From a candidate division WOR-1 bacterium RIFOXYB2_FULL_46_45 (GTDB lineage: Bacteria; Margulisbacteria; WOR-1; XYC2-FULL-46-14), in the NCBI GenBank assembly GCA_001771585.1, contig MEUE01000001.1, positions 681,984-745,983 of the forward strand: a stretch of DNA of 64,000 bases. Reading direction: 5' to 3'. Position 1 is the first letter of the stretch; each line of letters begins with the position of its first letter. Shown piece by piece: positions 11,892-16,747 of the stretch. The position numbers were made by a program, and so were the translations under genes. The notes beneath the pieces are model-generated. The model was not told the DNA's origin. It did not search any database and saw only the letters and a list, made by a program, of their open reading frames with translations.

Positions 11892-12769
11892 TCAAAAGAA
11901 GAAAAAAAACCGACTTTTTAAGATTTTTGGCGTTGCTTTTTGTTCTCTTCGGCATGGTCCACTTTTATCTCTATTTCTTCACCCCCCGCTTGATCTCCCC
12001 TCTCTTTCGTTTTGGAGTCCTTGAGAAAGAATACAATATTCTGATTTTGGGGACCGATTTTAATTTTGATCTTGAATCCCATAGGCGGAGCGCCGGCCGC
12101 ACCGATTCGATCCTCTTTTTGCATTACAAACCGTGGAGCCAGAAGTTCCATCTGCTTTCAATCCCTCGCGATTCTTACGTGAATATCCCCGGCTACGGGC
12201 TACAAAAGATCAATAGCGCCTATGTGCTGGGACAAATTAACCTAATCAAAGAAACGGTTGAAAAATTGCTCTCAAAAAAAATCGACCGCTATGTTATTTT
12301 AAACACCGGGCTTTTGGTCAAGACGGTTGACCTGGTCGGCGGGATTAACCTTTATGTTGACCGCGATATGAATTATATCGACAACGCCCAAAAATTGAAT
12401 ATCAACCTTAAACAGGGATACCAGCATTTGAACGGGACGCAGGCGCACCAGTTTATCCGTTTTCGCCACGACGCGATGGGAGACATCACCAGAGTTGAAC
12501 GCCAACAGGTTTTTTTCAAGGCCCTGCTCGCCAAGCTGGCCAATCCTTTTCAAGTCGTCAAAGCACCGATGATGCTCAAGATTATGCGGGAAAATTTGGA
12601 GACCGATCTGTCGCTTAGGGAAACGGTCCTTTTATTAAACTCCGCCCGCATGATGGGGAGAGACGATCTAAAAAGTTTTCTTCTGCCGGGAAATACGATC
12701 GATAACGGCCCCGGAAACTGGTTTATCAATCAGCCGGAGATAAATAAATTGATGCTGGAATCGTTCTAA
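11888..12769 (+). CDS. LCP family protein (LytR-CpsA-Psr), cell-envelope glycopolymer ligase
   Basis: N-terminal TM, then YNILILGTD…RTDSILFLHYKP…FHLLSIPRDSYVNIPGYG…KINSAY, which are characteristic LCP motifs. Confidence 0.8.
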   Translation: MIKRRKKTDFLRFLALLFVLFGMVHFYLYFFTPRLISPLFRFGVLEKEYNILILGTDFNFDLESHRRSAGRTDSILFLHYKPWSQKFHLLSIPRDSYVNIPGYGLQKINSAYVLGQINLIKETVEKLLSKKIDRYVILNTGLLVKTVDLVGGINLYVDRDMNYIDNAQKLNINLKQGYQHLNGTQAHQFIRFRHDAMGDITRVERQQVFFKALLAKLANPFQVVKAPMMLKIMRENLETDLSLRETVLLLNSARMMGRDDLKSFLLPGNTIDNGPGNWFINQPEINKLMLESF

Positions 12770-13710
12770 AGATTTCGGTCCCAATCCTTGAAGACCGGTT
12801 CATACCCTTTGGCAAAAATTGCCGCTGAAACTTCGGCTACGCTACGATGGTCGGCGACCGAAAATTGTTCCGAGGCCGAATCGGACGAAGAATATCCCCC
12901 CGGAGCGGTGCTGGACGCAGCCGACATCTGGGTTATTCCAAGCGGAATAAGATTGTCACGCAATTCCGCCGGTTCACGAGTTGATAAAGTCATGCCGACC
13001 GTCGGAAGAAGAATGCGCAGGCGGCAGATCATTTCAACCAAAGCTTTATCCGTTACCGGATTGAGCGGCTCAAACCCGCGCAGGCGGGGAAAAGAGATTG
13101 AAATTTGTGATTTCCAGAATTTTTTTTGCAAATATTGGGCGTGCGAAGCTAATGCTTGGAGCTCTTTTTGCCATTCGCCAAGACCGAGCAGAAAACCGAT
13201 ATTGATCCTGTGAAAACCGGCTCTCCCTCCCCGTTCCGGCGTTTCAAACCTGAAATCATAATCGGATTTTGGTCCGAATGGATGGACCTTTTTATAAATT
13301 TCGCGGTCGTAAACTTCCTGATAGATTGTTAATCCGTCCACCCCCGCCAAAAACAGCTCCCGATATTCGTCTTCGGACATCGGATAGATCTCAATCGAGA
13401 TGGAAGAGAACAAGTCCCGTAATTTTACTACCAGCTTTTTTAGGTAGTCCATAGAAATAATGTCTTTTCGTTCTCCGGAGACCAAAAGGATATGTTTGAA
13501 TCCCATTTTCGAAAGAATTTTTGCCTCTTCAAAGGCCCGGTCAACGGTCAAACTAATCCGCTTGCCGGAAGCTTTGCTGTTAAAACCGCAATAGACGCAT
13601 TGGTTATTGCATTCGTTGGACAAATATAACGGAGCGTAAAGCAAAATTGTTTTTCCAAAATGTTTTTGGGTTAATTGTTGGGACTTTTGAGCCAGTGCCT
13701 CCAGGTTCAT
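12766..13710 (-). CDS. thiH: 2-iminoacetate synthase ThiH (radical SAM tyrosine lyase)
   Basis: [20 protein letters not shown] (CxxxCxxC radical-SAM cluster in the ThiH context YVPLYLSNLCANDCTYCGF). Extended similarity to E. coli ThiH (…[10 protein letters not shown]…LSTRE…VFKDWD). Overlaps thiG (ATGA). Confidence 0.85.
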
Positions 13711-14534
13711 CGCAAAAAACCGGTCAGCGGACTGGAGGCGGAGGCGGTATCGGAAGAAATTGCTAAACCCGCCTCAAAACCCTCTCGTCCGGCTTCAACC
13801 GCTTTTTTGAAAGCCTGCGCCATTAATTTTGGATTAGGAGCGATCGCAATCGCGGTATTGACCAAAACGGCATCGGCGCCAAGTTCCATTGCAAGTGCGG
13901 CGTGAGATGGGGCGCCAAGGCCAGCATCAACAACAACCGGAACTCTGGCTTGTTCTATGATAATTTTGATTGAGTCAATAGTTTTTATCCCTTTGTGCGA
14001 CCCGATGGGTGAACCAAGCGGCATAACCGTGGCGCAGCCGGCATCCTGTAATTTCAAGGCCAGGACCGGATCGGCATTGATATATGGAAGGACGACAAAG
14101 CCCTCTTTGACTAAAATTTCGGCCGCCTTTAAGGTTTCGATCGGATCGGGGAGGAGATAATTTGGATCGGGAGTCACTTCCAGTTTTATCCAGTTACTTA
14201 ATCCTGATGCTTTCGCCAGGCGGGCGATGCGGACCGCCTCTTCGGCGCTTCTGGCGCCGGAAGTATTGGGAAGAAAAAGATATTTTTTGCGGTCAATCGC
14301 TTCGATAAAATTATCTTGCGGGTTATCCATATCGACTCTGCGCAGGGCCACGGTTACAATTTCCGCTCCCGACGCTTCAATTGCTTCAAGCATCGTTTTG
14401 GTGTTTGGAAATTTACCGGTCCCCAAAAAAAGGCGGGATTTTATTTCGCGGCCGGAAATTATGAGCGGTGGGGACTGGGAGCACCCCACACTAAAGTGTG
14501 GGGAATTGGGGTTTGAAAGCACTTTTTCCGTCAT
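13707..14534 (-). CDS. thiG: thiazole synthase ThiG (with unusual ~25-aa N-terminal extension containing a REP palindrome)
   Basis: …[36 protein letters not shown]… matches ThiG (E. coli …[35 protein letters not shown]…). The first ATG (14534) adds [25 protein letters not shown], and this stretch includes the REP palindrome at 14484-14504. Confidence 0.85.
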
Positions 14535-14640
14535 ATTTATATTATAACACCAAACTACTAGCCTCTTGCTGAAAAACCTATGTTAGGGGGTGGATAGGTT
14601 CTACGGTAAGAAGAAATACCCCACATTTAAATGTGGGGTA
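14484..14640. repeat. two REP-like palindromes (CCCCACA-N6-TGTGGGG) on the 3' side of the RAYT gene
   Basis: 14484-14504 ccccacactaaagtgtgggg; 14619-14638 ccccacatttaaatgtgggg (extended taccccacatttaaatgtggggta). Confidence 0.8.
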
Positions 14641-14657
14641 TTTCCCCCAAGTGTTGG

Positions 14658-15037
14658 CTATATTAGGTGCAAATCCTTCTTCTGGTTGCTTACATATCGG
14701 CTCACGGTAACTAATGCCTCTTCAGGAACTTCCTTAAAGGCATACTTTCTGGCCCAAAGATTATTAATTTTCATTTGTTCCTTTAAAATTGGGAAGGTCT
14801 TAAATATTCTTCTCGCCGAAATGCCTTTCAAAAACTTTACGGCTTTGGGTAGTTCATCTCTATTAGTCAATTCTAATAAAAGATGGGCATGATCAGGTAA
14901 TGTTCCATGCGCTACTAATCGAATGTTTTTATTTTTTGAAATTTCTTCAAAAAAGATGCTAATTTCTTTATCAATCTCGTCTATCAAAATCCGCCTCTTT
15001 CTTTTCGTTTGAAACCAAACATGAAAGTATTTCATTT
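14658..15037 (-). CDS. REP-associated tyrosine transposase (RAYT), IS200/IS605 TnpA-like Y1 HuH enzyme
   Basis: MKYFHVWFQTKRKRRILIDE…LVAHGTLPDHAHLLLELTN…LPKAVKFLKGISARRIF…SRYVSNQKK. The HuH motif (HAHLLL) and the catalytic Tyr in the Y-x-x-NQ motif match IS200 TnpA/RAYT. Start moved to MKYFHV; the upstream 47 codons of the tabulated ORF run through REP palindromes. Flanked by REP-like palindromes on both sides. Confidence 0.75.
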
Positions 15038-15089
15038 TTCTCGTCTCCTTTTTTTTCCAAAACACCTTAGGGGACTGTCGCATAATGCA

Positions 15090-15355
15090 CCCCGGACTAA
15101 AGTCCGGGGAATTTTTGGCGGCTTCCTCCTCGTGAATTCCCCACATTTTAATGTGGGGTTGCCACAAAATATTCATTTCGCGGCAGACACCTTAGCTCAA
15201 ATACCCCACAATTAATTGTGGGGTATTTGATATCGGTAATTTCTAATATCCTTAGCAATTTTGCCGCCAGAAATATGGGGAACCATAAAAAAATCCCCAG
15301 ATTTTATTCTGGGGGACATTCCTAGACCGTAAATTCCCCATAATTTATTATGGGG
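15090..15355. repeat. five REP-like palindromes on the 5' side of the RAYT gene
   Basis: 15090-15109 ccccggactaaagtccgggg; 15139-15158 ccccacattttaatgtgggg; 15204-15223 ccccacaattaattgtgggg; 15295-15314 ccccagattttattctgggg; 15336-15355 ccccataatttattatgggg. All share the consensus CCCC-R-N(8-10)-Y-GGGG with an AT-rich loop. Confidence 0.8.
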
Positions 15356-15364
15356 TGAACCTAA

Positions 15365-16747
15365 CTATCTACTAAGCCACTTATCGATCTCTCTCGCCGC
15401 CAGCTTGCCGTCCCCCATCGCGGAAATAACGGTAGCCGCTCCGCGGACAATGTCGCCGCCGGCGAAAACACCGGGGATTGACGTCATTTTTGTTTGTTGA
15501 TCTATAATTACACCGCCCCAATTGTGAATAGTGAGTCGTGAATCGGAAAGAGGAATGAGAGGATTCGGTTTGTTGCCGATCGCCACAACAACCGTATCAA
15601 CCGGAATGCGGTATTCGGATCCCTGGACAGGAACAGGACGCCGTCTCCCCGATTTATCGGGCTCGCCAAGCTCCATCTTTAGGCACTCCGCCTCTTTTAC
15701 CCATCCTTTTTCATCGCCAAACAGCTCGGTCGGCGCGGTCAAAAGATGAAATTCGATCTTCTCTTCCTCCGCCCGCTCCAATTCTTCCTTTCTGGCGGGG
15801 ATCTCCGTTCTGCTTCTACGATAAATTATCTTAACTTCTTCGGCTCCCAACCTTAAAGCGCAGCGAGCCGCGTCCATGGCGACATTCCCGGCCCCAAAAA
15901 CCGCGACTTTTTTGCCGATCTTAATCGGGGTCATATATTCCGGAAACTTGTAGGCCTTCATCATATTAATACGGGTCAAAAATTCGTTGGCGGAATAAAC
16001 TCCCAGCAAATTTTCGCCGGGAATTCCCATAAAGTTCGGCAGTCCGGCGCCGGAACCGACAAAGATCGCCTTGTAGCCGTCTTTAAACAATTGTTCAATC
16101 GTTATCGTCTTACCGATCAAAACATCGTTTAAGATTTCAACTCCAAGTGATTTGACGTATTCAATTTCGGTACGGACAATTCTCTTGGGCAATCTAAATT
16201 CGGGGATCCCGTAGATCAAAACCCCGCCGGAGTCCGACAAAGATTCAAACATGGTGACTTTATATCCCATCAGCGCCAAATCCGCCGCACAGGTGATACC
16301 TGCTGGACCGGAGCCAACCACTGCCACTTTTGAATTTTGAACATTAGAATTTTGAATTTGTTTAGGATTTAGAGTTTCGGATTTCGTTTTTTCCGAAGCG
16401 AAGCGTTCAAGTGCTCCAATCGCCACCGGTTTCCCCTTAATTCCCAAAATACACTCTTTTTCGCACTGATCTTCCTGCGGACAAACACGGCCGCAAACCG
16501 CAGGCAGTGCGTTTTTCTCTTTTATTTTGGCAAGGGCTTCTTCTCTTTTCCCTTCGGCAATCAGTTTTATAAACCCGGGGATATCAATCTCTACCGGACA
16601 GCCGGAAACGCATTTCGGTTTTTTGCATTGGATACAGCGTTTGGCCTCGGAAATCGCGGTTTCAAGGTCAAAGGGAAGAGCAACTTCTTCAAAGTCCTTG
16701 ATGCGTTCGGAAACGGAGCGCTCCGGTATTTTGTGGCGGTCGGTCAT
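15365..16747 (-). CDS. NADPH-dependent glutamate synthase small-subunit-like / sulfide dehydrogenase SudA-like FAD/NAD(P) oxidoreductase with N-terminal 2x[4Fe-4S] domain
   Basis: N-terminal Cys clusters CIQCKKPKCVSGCP…CGRVCPQEDQCEKEC. Dinucleotide folds VAVVGSGPAGITCAADLA and VAVFGAGNVAMDAAR, which is GltD/SudA/dihydropyrimidine dehydrogenase PreT-like architecture. Confidence 0.8.
   Translation of the reverse strand: MTDRHKIPERSVSERIKDFEEVALPFDLETAISEAKRCIQCKKPKCVSGCPVEIDIPGFIKLIAEGKREEALAKIKEKNALPAVCGRVCPQEDQCEKECILGIKGKPVAIGALERFASEKTKSETLNPKQIQNSNVQNSKVAVVGSGPAGITCAADLALMGYKVTMFESLSDSGGVLIYGIPEFRLPKRIVRTEIEYVKSLGVEILNDVLIGKTITIEQLFKDGYKAIFVGSGAGLPNFMGIPGENLLGVYSANEFLTRINMMKAYKFPEYMTPIKIGKKVAVFGAGNVAMDAARCALRLGAEEVKIIYRRSRTEIPARKEELERAEEEKIEFHLLTAPTELFGDEKGWVKEAECLKMELGEPDKSGRRRPVPVQGSEYRIPVDTVVVAIGNKPNPLIPLSDSRLTIHNWGGVIIDQQTKMTSIPGVFAGGDIVRGAATVISAMGDGKLAAREIDKWLSR

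What the first reader, a model, noticed from the sequence alone, without database searches (positions are those of the whole stretch)
14484..15355. RAYT (REP-associated tyrosine transposase) flanked by seven REP-like palindromes, one reaching into the thiG 5' end
The ORF at 14658-15037 carries the IS200/IS605 TnpA HuH motif (HAHLLL) and the catalytic Tyr in a Y-x-x-NQ motif. It lacks flanking IS ends. Instead, seven copies of a 20-bp palindrome CCCC-R-CA-(AT-rich 6-8)-TG-Y-GGGG sit around it: two on the 3' side and five on the 5' side. One copy (14484-14504) lies inside the apparent N-terminal extension of ThiG. The REP cluster also separates thiG from gltD-like and may act as a terminator or stability element. 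No ThiS gene is visible upstream of thiG.
Basis: partly seen in the sequence, partly recalled or inferred. Interest (0 to 1): 0.5.

Follow-up and report, generated by a model that had tools for sequence, protein, structure and literature searches.

The report
IS200-type transposase with dispersed REP-like hairpins
A small single-copy IS200-class tyrosine transposase gene in a Saganbacteria (WOR-1) genome sits among seven copies of a 20-base hairpin that is scattered between genes across this bacterial lineage, so it behaves like the REP/RAYT systems of E. coli although the enzyme belongs to a different branch of the family.

Summary
Seven 20-nt palindromes (CCCC-N12-GGGG) surround an intact 125-aa Y1/HUH gene (14658-15035, minus strand). 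None occurs elsewhere in the 64-kb window.

The hairpin family is not confined to this locus. One more copy lies 22.6 kb away on the same 1.67-Mb contig. More than 300 copies were recovered from Candidatus Saganbacteria/WOR-1/Margulisiibacteriota contigs. They are mostly extragenic and mostly occur as convergent, heterotypic doublets, with compensatory stem changes.

About 80 relatives of the protein (47-60% identical) are nearly all 125 aa and are each recorded on one or two contigs. In most relatives examined, one hairpin ends 9-10 nt before the ATG and an inverted one starts 6 nt after the last codon.

So the REP-plus-associated-transposase reading holds operationally. By sequence, however, the protein is IS200/IS605 class 1 (Y-x-x-x-Q; ISDra2 TnpA at E 1e-22; no match to E. 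coli TnpA-REP; below the NCBIfam RAYT cut-off). The hairpins lack a GTAG foot and are the same type that ends true IS200/IS605 elements.

Copy H1 and a half-copy are fused in frame to thiG, whose native start is gone. The cluster replaces a dehydrogenase gene present in relatives. The absence of thiS is a lineage trait.

Verdict: a new variant of a known kind, of moderate interest.

The parts
14658..15035 (-). tnpA: 125-aa Y1/HUH single-strand DNA transposase of IS200/IS605 class 1 (DHAH, Y114-x-x-N-Q118). Stop codon TAG at 14658-14660.
   Evidence: Pfam Y1_Tnp 86.8 bits. NCBIfam IS200 74 bits against a cut-off of 55. ISDra2 TnpA E 4.5e-19 with the single sequence and 3.5e-22 with the clade profile. 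The clade alignment has 36 invariant columns.
15044..15049 (-). Shine-Dalgarno AGGAGA, 8 nt before the tnpA ATG.
   Evidence: Read directly from the sequence.
14484..14503 (+). H1 hairpin CCCCACACTAAAGTGTGGGG with AAT at its 3' end on the + strand. It lies inside the thiG 5' end, and GTG 14489-14487 (minus strand) is in its arm.
   Evidence: DNA fold -8.7 kcal/mol.
14468..14479 (-). Half-hairpin CCCAGTCCCCAC (5' arm only) that abuts the first conserved thiG codon. It is the probable breakpoint of a deletion that ended in a REP.
   Evidence: Direct repeat D2; sequence; comparison with L245.
14613..14644 (.). H2: perfect 32-nt palindrome (core 14619-14638, loop TTAA), 23 nt after the last tnpA codon.
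   Evidence: -13.5 kcal/mol, z -7.0.
14644..14657 (-). CCAACACTTGGGGG. This is a possible decayed remnant of the canonical hairpin that follows the stop codon in relatives (low confidence).
   Evidence: Sequence, compared with the +6 hairpins of relatives.
15090..15109 (+). H3 hairpin CCCCGGACTAAAGTCCGGGG-AAT, 55 nt upstream of the tnpA ATG. It forms a convergent doublet with H4.
   Evidence: -9.6 kcal/mol.
15139..15158 (-). H4 hairpin (minus strand CCCCACATTAAAATGTGGGG-AAT), the partner of H3 at 49 nt start-to-start.
15197..15230 (.). H5: perfect 34-nt palindrome (core 15204-15223, loop TTAA).
   Evidence: -15.1 kcal/mol, z -6.8.
15295..15314 (-). H6 hairpin (minus strand CCCCAGAATAAAATCTGGGG) followed by ATTTTTTT. 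It is the only copy that looks like an intrinsic terminator on the sense strand of gltA.
15336..15355 (-). H7 hairpin (minus strand CCCCATAATAAATTATGGGG-AAT), 10 nt after the gltA stop codon.
13707..14534 (-). thiG. The conserved core starts at codon 24. Candidate starts are ATG 14534, GTG 14522 and GTG 14489. The 18-23 extra N-terminal residues derive from REP sequence.
   Evidence: Pfam ThiG 359 bits, starting at residue 26. Relatives are 253-257 aa and start M-(x)-L-K-I. NCBI calls the 260-aa form (P0008).
14541..14549 (-). TGTTATAAT, an extended -10-like element 7 nt before ATG 14534. It is a possible thiG promoter producing a leaderless mRNA (inference only).
   Evidence: Sequence. The consensus scan did not report it because the -35 is poor.
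15365..16747 (-). NADPH-dependent glutamate synthase (gltA/gltD-like), the upstream neighbour on the same strand.
   Evidence: NCBIfam TIGR01316 573 bits.

Best explanation
This is a REPtron-like locus of a Candidatus Saganbacteria (candidate division WOR-1) genome. A low-copy, minimal 125-aa IS200/IS605 class-1 TnpA (HUH plus Tyr) is the cognate single-strand DNA enzyme of a lineage-wide family of 20-nt hairpins, 5'-GNAA-CCCC-N4-TRAA-N4-GGGG-AAT-3'.

In the lineage, the basic unit is a 429-bp cassette. One hairpin ends 9-10 nt before the ATG, and an inverted one starts 6 nt after the last codon. The dispersed convergent doublets have the same outer (GNAA / TTNC) and inner (AAT / ATT) flanks. 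They look like the cassette without the gene, that is, non-autonomous REPIN- or MITE-like derivatives.

Proposed mechanism (inferred by homology with IS608, ISDra2 and E. coli TnpA-REP): TnpA binds the hairpins when DNA is single-stranded, cleaves next to them through Tyr114, and excises or inserts hairpin-bounded segments in trans.

In this genome the gene has lost both canonical flanking hairpins but is surrounded by seven copies. A deletion that ended in a REP removed a dehydrogenase gene and the native thiG start, fusing REP sequence in frame to thiG.

Shown here: anatomy, family membership of the protein, gene-hairpin association, dispersal, extragenic bias, stem covariation, and the thiG and synteny changes. 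Inferred: binding, cleavage, mobilisation, and which thiG start is used.
For: - Significance. Seven copies lie in 872 bp and none in the other 63 kb of the window.
- Same genome. One further copy (CCCCACAATTAATTGTGGGG-AAT) is intergenic 22.6 kb away on the same JGI contig, Ga0208953_1000001. A doublet occurs in MEUD01000001.1, the curated complete WOR-1 genome of 1.669 Mb, probably the same species.
- Lineage-wide dispersal. The genome hits concentrate in Saganbacteria/WOR-1/Margulisiibacteriota MAGs: at least 29 hairpins in 16 loci of one MAG, and at least 27, 19 and 18 in three others.
- Real hairpins. 293 of 331 pattern matches are Watson-Crick at the three positions the pattern left free or half-free, against about 3% expected by chance. 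328 of 375 have fully complementary inner stems, in 23 different stem variants.
- Extragenic. 69% lie wholly outside ORFs of at least 120 aa, although 88% of the bases are inside such ORFs.
- Doublets. 80 are convergent (+-), against 5 (-+), 11 (++) and 5 (--). Spacing is bimodal at 24-27 and 35-45 nt. Stems differ within 79 of 80 doublets.
- Gene-hairpin association. All 13 relatives examined, each in a different genomic context, carry these hairpins next to the gene. All four sampled independently of any hairpin search have the exact -9/-10 and +6 arrangement.
- Copy number. The exact protein is on 15 contigs, all in the same context. About 80 clade clusters have almost all 1-2 contigs each, and those with names come from WOR-1, Saganbacteria or Margulisiibacteriota. 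Only 6 of 1.84 billion representative proteins score E<=1e-30.
- Active site. HUH, Tyr and Gln are invariant in the clade and align with ISDra2 TnpA.
- Precedent. In Marinomonas REPtrons the REPs are concentrated around the gene (PMC8266576).
Against: - No activity data exist.
- The genome-wide count in this genome could not be obtained because both scans were truncated before reaching it. The density appears low: one extra copy in about 82 kb, and roughly one site per 25-40 kb near relatives' genes.
- By sequence the protein is an IS200-type transposase, and the cassette sits at a different place in every genome examined. It may therefore still move as a minimal IS.
- In the window, the two hairpins nearest to a canonical form, H3 and H1, are in direct orientation on the sense strand, as in a true IS.
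- Doublet spacers are not conserved. Doublets may therefore arise by targeted insertion of single hairpins rather than by transposition as one unit.
- Paralogues of tnpA elsewhere in this genome cannot be excluded. One relative contig carries a second, different Y1 gene.
Confidence: 0.68

Rival explanations
1. It is an ordinary autonomous IS200-type insertion sequence (tnpA only) with subterminal hairpins. The other hairpins are solo ends or MITE/PATE-like derivatives of the same active IS, with no domestication.
For: - The NCBIfam IS200/IS605 model scores above its cut-off, and the best solved relatives are ISDra2 and IS608 TnpA.
- The same hairpin type ends real tnpA+tnpB elements (L015, L017) and flanks a 148-aa tnpA in direct orientation (L093).
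- The 429-bp cassette is in a different context in every genome.
- In the window, H3 and H1 are in direct orientation on the sense strand.
Against: - The exact protein occurs in one genomic context across 15 contigs.
- Clade members are on 1-2 contigs each, whereas IS200 subclass 1.1 averages 4.8 near-identical copies per genome (PMC6006769).
- The flanking hairpins are inverted, not direct, in most relatives.
- Hairpin loci outnumber tnpA loci by at least 8 to 1 in the MAGs where both were seen.
- There is no tnpB.
Confidence: 0.2
2. In this particular genome the locus is a fossil. tnpA has lost its own recognition hairpins and no longer mobilises anything. The seven copies and the thiG fusion are scars of past activity.
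For: - The canonical -10 and +6 hairpins are missing. Only a possible remnant follows the stop codon.
- Two copies are symmetrised perfect palindromes, and one half-copy is truncated.
- Hairpin density outside the cluster is low in this genome.
Against: - The ORF is intact with a good Shine-Dalgarno sequence, and every clade-invariant residue is present.
- A trans-acting enzyme does not need hairpins at its own gene.
- The locus is identical in several samples.
Confidence: 0.25
3. The palindromes are host regulatory elements (intrinsic terminators or mRNA-stabilising stem-loops) with no functional link to the Y1 gene.
For: - They are extragenic.
- H6 is followed by a T-run on the sense strand of gltA.
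- H7 starts 10 nt after the gltA stop codon.
Against: - The conserved 3' flank is AAT rather than a T-run.
- The hairpins sit at fixed distances (-10 and +6) around the Y1 gene in unrelated contexts.
- They are the same hairpins that end IS200/IS605 elements.
- Only 3 terminator-like sites were found in the region, against 1.8 expected.
A secondary RNA role for individual copies is not excluded.
Confidence: 0.05

Closest known systems
REPtrons: TnpA-REP/RAYT with REP/BIME sequences (E. coli yafM; Pseudomonas, Stenotrophomonas, Marinomonas; Quentin classes 2.2, 2.4, 2.5, 2.7, 2.8)
   Same: A low-copy Y1/HUH gene is bordered by short palindromes in inverted orientation. The same palindromes are dispersed extragenically, often as inverted pairs of two related types, like the Y/Z REPs of a BIME. 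REPs cluster near the gene as in the Marinomonas REPtrons (PMC8266576). In-frame REP insertions in genes have been reported (PMC6006769).
   Different: The protein is class 1 (Y---Q, core only, 125 aa) and not class 2 (Y---NP with extra domains). It scores below the NCBIfam RAYT cut-off, and E. coli TnpA-REP is not detected. There is no 5' GT[AG]G foot; the tag is AAT (ATT on the other strand). Copy number appears to be tens rather than hundreds. The host is an uncultivated phylum.
IS200/IS605 insertion sequences (ISDra2, IS608; Quentin subclass 1.1)
   Same: It has the same fold class and catalytic motifs, with ISDra2 TnpA at E 1e-22. The hairpin has a CCCC/GGGG base. The same hairpin type ends real tnpA+tnpB elements.
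   Different: It is low-copy with no tnpB. The flanking hairpins are inverted rather than direct. The HUH motif is DH[AM]H rather than DH[VI]H, and the W motif is WA rather than W[TS]. Hairpins without a gene far outnumber the gene.
REPINs (Pseudomonas fluorescens; Bertels and Rainey)
   Same: Two REPs occur in inverted orientation as the commonest unit, far more numerous than the single associated Y1 gene.
   Different: The doublets here are short (44-71 nt). Their spacers are not conserved. The two hairpins almost always have different stems (79 of 80), so each folds on its own rather than as one long hairpin.
[quoted passage not shown] 2017
   Same: These are class-1 relatives with low copy number and non-IS behaviour. 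Proteins scoring 90-100 bits to the clade profile carry the WQ and Y---Q--HH signatures of subclass 1.2. Group 3 is associated with abundant flanking 16-mers (PMC5581495).
   Different: This clade has WA and Y[IV]xNQKKDL and no C-terminal domain. Subclass 1.2 was described as not associated with REPs and as occurring mostly in Cyanobacteria and Bacteroidetes (PMC6006769). Identity with Group 3 could not be tested.
MITE-like derivatives of IS200/IS605 (PATEs of haloarchaea; from my own knowledge, not checked here)
   Same: Gene-less elements bounded by the hairpin ends of an IS200/IS605 element, presumably mobilised in trans.
   Different: PATEs keep the direct LE/RE end organisation and coexist with multi-copy parent ISs. 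Here the ends are inverted and the gene is low-copy.

Membership tests
RAYT / TnpA-REP (class 2 of PMC6006769) | Y1/HUH catalytic core (HUH motif plus catalytic Tyr) | tested here: met
   DHAH at 48-51 and Y114 align with ISDra2 TnpA. Pfam Y1_Tnp 86.8 bits.
RAYT / TnpA-REP (class 2 of PMC6006769) | Y motif Y-x-x-x-N-P | tested here: not met
   The motif is YVSNQ in the window and Y[IV]xNQKKDL across the clade, which is the class-1 Y---Q signature.
RAYT / TnpA-REP (class 2 of PMC6006769) | Score at or above the curated cut-off of NCBIfam NF047646 (REP-associated tyrosine transposase) | tested here: not met
   36.6 bits against a cut-off of 80.
RAYT / TnpA-REP (class 2 of PMC6006769) | Detectable sequence similarity to E. 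coli TnpA-REP (solved structure) | tested here: not met
   It is not among the PDB hits at E<=1 with the single sequence or at E<=10 with the clade profile. All eight IS200/IS605 TnpA sequences were found.
RAYT / TnpA-REP (class 2 of PMC6006769) | Cognate REPs carry a 5' GT[AG]G tetranucleotide at the hairpin foot | tested here: not met
   The flank logo gives GNAA 5' and AAT 3' (ATT 5' on the other strand), with no GTAG.
RAYT / TnpA-REP (operational definition: REP-associated) | Gene flanked by REPs in inverted orientation | tested here: met
   Met in relatives: hp(+) at -9 to -26 and hp(-) at +6 to +11. In the window it is met only loosely, with seven copies of mixed orientation and both canonical positions empty.
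RAYT / TnpA-REP (operational definition: REP-associated) | The same palindrome is dispersed in extragenic space of the host genome | tested here: met
   One extra copy lies 22.6 kb away on the same contig. Single Saganbacteria MAGs carry at least 18-29 hairpins. 69% are outside ORFs. The full count for this genome was not obtainable.
RAYT / TnpA-REP (operational definition: REP-associated) | Low copy number, with no near-identical duplicates | tested here: inconclusive
   The exact protein occurs in one context on 15 contigs, and clade clusters are on 1-2 contigs each. The whole genome could not be scanned for paralogues.
IS200/IS605 TnpA (subclass 1.1) | Score above the cut-off of NCBIfam NF033573 and Pfam PF01797; Y---Q motif | tested here: met
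   74 bits against 55 and 86.8 against 23. The motif is YVSNQ.
IS200/IS605 TnpA (subclass 1.1) | Multiple near-identical copies per genome (mean 4.8 at 99% identity, PMC6006769) | tested here: inconclusive
   No second copy was found in about 82 kb of this genome or in any 20-kb relative locus. Cluster contig counts are 1-2. There is no whole-genome census.
IS200/IS605 TnpA (subclass 1.1) | Left- and right-end hairpins in direct orientation on one strand | tested here: not met
   They are inverted in most relatives examined, including all four sampled independently of the hairpin. A true IS in L093 shows direct orientation. The window itself is ambiguous, since H3 and H1 are direct.
Quentin subclass 1.2 | Y---Q--HH motif, WQ motif and a conserved C-terminal domain of about 30 aa | tested here: not met
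   The clade has NQKKDL[HSY], WA[RK], and ends 11 residues after the Tyr. More distant hits do carry the 1.2 motifs.
REPIN | Two inverted REPs with a conserved spacer that fold into one long hairpin | tested here: not met
   Inverted pairs are present (80 convergent), but spacers are variable and stems are heterotypic in 79 of 80. The H4-H3 doublet folds as two separate hairpins.

The most novel reading that the evidence does not exclude
Saganbacteria carry a previously undescribed REP system whose enzyme is a minimal class-1 (IS200-type) TnpA rather than a class-2 RAYT. This would be either an independent domestication or a living intermediate between IS200/IS605 insertion sequences and REPtrons. 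It has a 429-bp hairpin-gene-hairpin cassette, heterotypic hairpin doublets as its non-autonomous derivatives, and at least one case where REP sequence became the translated 5' end of a thiamine-biosynthesis gene.
Probability: 0.45. Interest if true: 0.6.

Novelty: new variant of a known kind. Interest (0 to 1): 0.5.

Why it matters
REP sequences and their Y1 enzymes have been studied almost only in Proteobacteria. In the surveys read here, all REP-associated enzymes fall in class 2 or 3, and class 1 is treated as ordinary IS transposases or, for subclass 1.2, as not linked to REPs.

A class-1 enzyme with a REPtron-like organisation would show that REP-type spread of hairpins can arise directly from an IS200/IS605 element. 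It would also offer a very small experimental system: a 125-aa protein and 20-nt near-perfect hairpins. That system could test how such enzymes tell the two hairpin orientations apart and how domestication proceeds.

There are practical consequences as well. The hairpins break assemblies and mislead start-codon calling in these MAGs; thiG is called at 260 aa by NCBI and 275 aa by JGI. REP-ended deletions also remodel operons in a streamlined 1.67-Mb genome.

Tried and rejected
- My first window pattern had the wrong length and found nothing, and the first Pfam call used off-by-two coordinates.
- Rfam found only one tRNA in the whole window at gathering thresholds. A permissive scan of 14300-15500 gave only chance-level hits. 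There is no TPP riboswitch and no known RNA family.
- A search for thiS (an ORF of at least 55 aa ending in GG) across the window found no candidate.
I substituted two 10-kb extensions of the window.
- A CRISPR-like array was rejected. Spacing is irregular, copies are in mixed orientation, and the stems differ.
- A general terminator role was rejected, because the conserved AAT flank is not a T-run.
- The second Y1 gene in L249 has no hairpins of this or any obvious type nearby.
- A literature search for Saganbacteria plus palindromes returned nothing.
Full report
**1. What is there**

The window is part of a 1,673,420-bp metagenomic contig (JGI 3300025081, Ga0208953_1000001). The identical ThiG protein is annotated by NCBI in 'candidate division WOR-1 bacterium RIFOXYA12_FULL_43_27'. 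The organism is therefore a Rifle-aquifer Saganbacterium (WOR-1, Margulisiibacteriota).

On the minus strand the gene order is gltA (15365-16747), a 330-bp spacer, a 125-aa ORF (14658-15035), a 123-bp spacer, thiG (longest ORF 13707-14534), then thiH.

Seven 20-nt palindromes of the form CCCC-N12-GGGG lie at 14484, 14619, 15090, 15139, 15204, 15295 and 15336. A palindrome search of the whole 64 kb finds only these plus one unrelated 17-mer. Each folds as an isolated DNA hairpin of -6.7 to -15.1 kcal/mol, and the H4-H3 pair folds as two separate hairpins. The only corrections are the ORF start (15035, preceded by AGGAGA) and the consensus.

**2. The protein**

- It matches Pfam Y1_Tnp at 86.8 bits.
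- It matches the NCBIfam IS200/IS605 model at 74 bits (cut-off 55). The REP-associated tyrosine transposase model gives only 36.6 bits (cut-off 80).
- Its closest solved relatives are the ISDra2 TnpA structures (E about 1e-18 to 1e-19), then IS608 and two Sulfolobus TnpAs. The alignment places DHAH on the HUH motif and Y114/Q118 on the catalytic Tyr and Gln.
- A profile of ten clade members raises these scores (ISDra2 3.5e-22, IS608 1.4e-15) but still does not retrieve E. coli TnpA-REP at E<=10.

In the classification of Quentin et al. (PMC6006769), the Y---Q motif and the core-only architecture place it in class 1. All REP-associated subclasses in that survey are class 2 (Y---NP) or class 3.

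The clade is small. Only 6 of 1.84 billion representative proteins score E<=1e-30. About 80 clusters at 90% identity were found, nearly all 125 aa and nearly all on one or two contigs. Where a source names them, they come from WOR-1, Saganbacteria or Margulisiibacteriota, with one exception labelled Thermodesulfobacteriota.

Clade signatures are YYHxWFQTK, DH[AM]HLL, KGIS[AS]R, NNxWAR and Y[IV]xNQKKDL. More distant hits carry the WQ and Y---Q--HH motifs of Quentin's subclass 1.2. The clade therefore sits near the non-IS branch of class 1, but it does not meet that subclass's motifs.

**3. The hairpins are a dispersed family**

Reading relatives' loci gave an oriented consensus: CCCC-R-N-A-N-T-R-A-A-N-T-N-Y-GGGG-AAT.

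Of 331 matches, 293 are Watson-Crick at the three stem positions that the pattern left free or half-free, against about 3% expected by chance. Of 375 candidate 20-mers, 328 have fully complementary inner stems, in 23 different variants. That is strong compensatory variation.

The genome hits concentrate in Saganbacteria/WOR-1/Margulisiibacteriota MAGs. Lower bounds are 29, 27, 19 and 18 hairpins in four single MAGs. Unrelated taxa give single hits.

The hairpins are extragenic. 69% lie wholly outside ORFs of at least 120 aa, although such ORFs cover 88% of the bases.

In this genome itself:
- A 10-kb extension of the window on the same contig holds one more copy. It is intergenic and 22.6 kb from the cluster.
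- The curated complete WOR-1 genome MEUD01000001.1 (1.669 Mb, probably the same species) has a doublet near 1.645 Mb.

The density here seems low. In four 20-kb loci centred on relatives' genes, only two doublets and one single copy lie outside the cassette. That is roughly one site per 25-40 kb, or tens per genome.

**4. Architecture**

Among 342 perfect hairpins, 215 have a neighbour within 120 nt. The arrangement is overwhelmingly convergent: 80 pairs are +-, against 5 -+, 11 ++ and 5 --. Start-to-start spacing is 24-27 or 35-45 nt. The two stems differ in 79 of 80 pairs, typically ACAx paired with A[T/G]Ax. Spacers begin with AAT and end with ATT but are otherwise not conserved. Outer flanks are GNAA and TTNC.

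Relatives of the gene lie in at least 13 different genomic contexts, always between housekeeping genes. Most have one hairpin ending 9-26 nt before the ATG and an inverted one starting 6-11 nt after the last codon. All four loci fetched through the protein alone have exactly -9/-10 and +6, which gives a 429-bp cassette with the same outer flanks as the doublets. The doublets therefore look like the cassette without its gene.

**5. Link to true insertion sequences**

The same hairpin type occurs in genuine IS200/IS605 elements.
- CCCCGCACTTTAGTGCGGGG, preceded by ATT, lies at the 3' end of a tnpA-fragment plus tnpB unit (OrfB_IS605 plus the Cas12f1-like TNB domain) in L015 and L017. It also lies 77 nt from the ends of several Asgard archaeal contigs.
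- A 148-aa tnpA in L093 is flanked by two such hairpins in direct orientation.

The Saganbacterial hairpins are therefore derived IS200/IS605 ends. The change in this lineage is the inverted arrangement, the low gene copy number and the excess of gene-less copies.

**6. The window's locus is atypical**

Both canonical positions are empty. Upstream there is a separate Shine-Dalgarno sequence, and the nearest hairpin (H3) is 55 nt away in the 'wrong' orientation, forming a doublet with H4. Downstream, CCAACACTTGGGGG directly after the stop codon may be a decayed hairpin. H2 and H5 are perfect 32- and 34-nt palindromes with loop TTAA, a form seen only 6 times in 342 elsewhere.

**7. thiG, thiS and synteny**

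ThiG relatives at 71-89% identity are 253-257 aa and start M-(x)-L-K-I. The first 19-23 residues of the window ORF have no counterpart.

A syntenic relative (L245, ThiG 89% identical) has gltA, a 378-aa ORF, an isocitrate/isopropylmalate-type dehydrogenase, thiG, then thiH. The same LytR, nitroreductase and SSB genes follow downstream. It has no hairpins and no thiS. Another Saganbacterium has gltA directly followed by the dehydrogenase, and that gene is absent from the window.

In L245, thiG starts at a GTG that overlaps the dehydrogenase stop codon. In the window the corresponding codon is CCG, immediately preceded by a half-hairpin (CCCAGTCCCCAC) and then H1. No ATG, GTG or TTG lies between H1 and the conserved core. 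Translation must therefore begin at one of three sites:
- GTG 14489, inside the hairpin arm (NCBI's 260-aa call);
- GTG 14522, whose context GGAAAAAGTGCTT resembles the relative's start context;
- ATG 14534 (JGI's 275-aa call).

A TGTTATAAT element 7 nt before ATG 14534 would fit a leaderless transcript. This is my reading of the sequence and is not a tested result.

The most economical history is a deletion with one end in a REP. It removed the dehydrogenase gene and the thiG start and fused REP sequence in frame. In-frame REP insertions in genes have been reported (PMC6006769).

The missing thiS is a lineage feature, not a consequence of the element. No TPP riboswitch or other Rfam family is present. 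Only H6 has a T-run on the sense strand of gltA.

**8. Interpretation**

The best-supported reading (0.68) is a REPtron-like system in which a low-copy class-1 TnpA acts in trans on dispersed hairpins, by the single-strand cleavage and joining chemistry shown for IS608, ISDra2 and E. coli TnpA-REP. Binding, cleavage and mobilisation are inferred, not shown.

- The main rival (0.2) is an ordinary minimal IS with MITE-like derivatives. It is favoured by the sequence family and by the different position of the cassette in each genome. It is disfavoured by copy number, inverted ends and the gene-to-hairpin ratio.
- A compatible modifier (0.25) is that this particular copy is a fossil.
- A pure terminator or RNA-element reading is unlikely (0.05).

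**9. Novelty**

REP/RAYT systems are well known, so the kind is not new. What differs is the enzyme class, the hairpin tag (AAT rather than GTAG), the heterotypic short doublets and the host phylum.

[quoted passage not shown] I could not test identity with Group 3. Literature searches found nothing on palindromes in Saganbacteria.

I rate it a new variant of a known kind, with interest 0.5.

Noticed in passing
window 14613-14644 and 15197-15230: Two of the seven copies are perfect 32- and 34-nt palindromes (loop TTAA, flanks AAATA/TATTT). This symmetric form is rare elsewhere (6 of 342), as if the hairpins had been symmetrised by template switching.
   Followed up: partly
window 14468-14479 (minus strand): A half-hairpin CCCAGTCCCCAC abuts the first conserved thiG codon. 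It is the probable breakpoint of a deletion that removed the dehydrogenase gene found between gltA and thiG in two relatives (L245, L188).
   Followed up: partly
window 14541-14549 (minus strand): TGTTATAAT (an extended -10 consensus) ends 7 nt before ATG 14534, which suggests a leaderless thiG mRNA. The consensus promoter scan did not report it.
   Followed up: no
window 12766-13710 (thiH): ThiH is 314 aa and matches only positions 52-364 of the TIGR02351 profile. Its start overlaps the thiG stop codon. In the relative L245, thiH is 339 aa and is separated from thiG by a 351-nt gap.
   Followed up: no
L237 5150-5340 (MEUD01000001.1, near 1.645 Mb): In a hairpin doublet, the second hairpin is split by a 20-nt insert (CCTGTCTGCCGGTAGGCAGG). 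Immediately upstream lie two other, unrelated 27-nt perfect palindromes (CTTGAGGTCACAAATTGTGACCTCAAG and CTTAAGGTTCCAATTTGGAACCTTAAG).
   Followed up: no
L249 18664-19068: A Saganbacteria-type contig carries a second, different Y1_Tnp gene (134 aa, 74.9 bits) 8 kb from the clade gene. No hairpins of this family lie around it.
   Followed up: partly
L156, L177, L219, L224 (Candidatus Asgardarchaeum abyssi) and L134 (Njordarchaeota): The identical sequence ctcctCCCCGCACTAAAGTGCGGGGaatcc lies exactly 77 nt from four Asgard contig ends. It matches the right end of the tnpA+tnpB element seen in L015 and L017, so an active IS200/IS605 probably breaks these assemblies.
   Followed up: partly
doublets in L007-L244: The two hairpins of a convergent doublet almost never share the same stem (79 of 80 differ, usually ACAx with A[T/G]Ax), and doublet spacing is bimodal (24-27 and 35-45 nt). 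No explanation was found. The pattern recalls the Y/Z REP alternation in E. coli BIMEs.
   Followed up: partly
L070 371-457; L188 322-404: In two other Saganbacteria-type contigs, hairpins also sit directly next to the gltA homologue. In one, a doublet follows the stop codon; in the other, a single copy precedes the start. The gltA borders may be a recurrent site.
   Followed up: no
relatives' cassettes, e.g. L249 9972-10000: In the canonical cassette only 9-10 nt separate the hairpin from the ATG. The GGGG of the 3' arm is therefore the only Shine-Dalgarno-like sequence, and hairpin formation in the mRNA could gate tnpA translation. The window copy has a separate AGGAGA instead.
   Followed up: no
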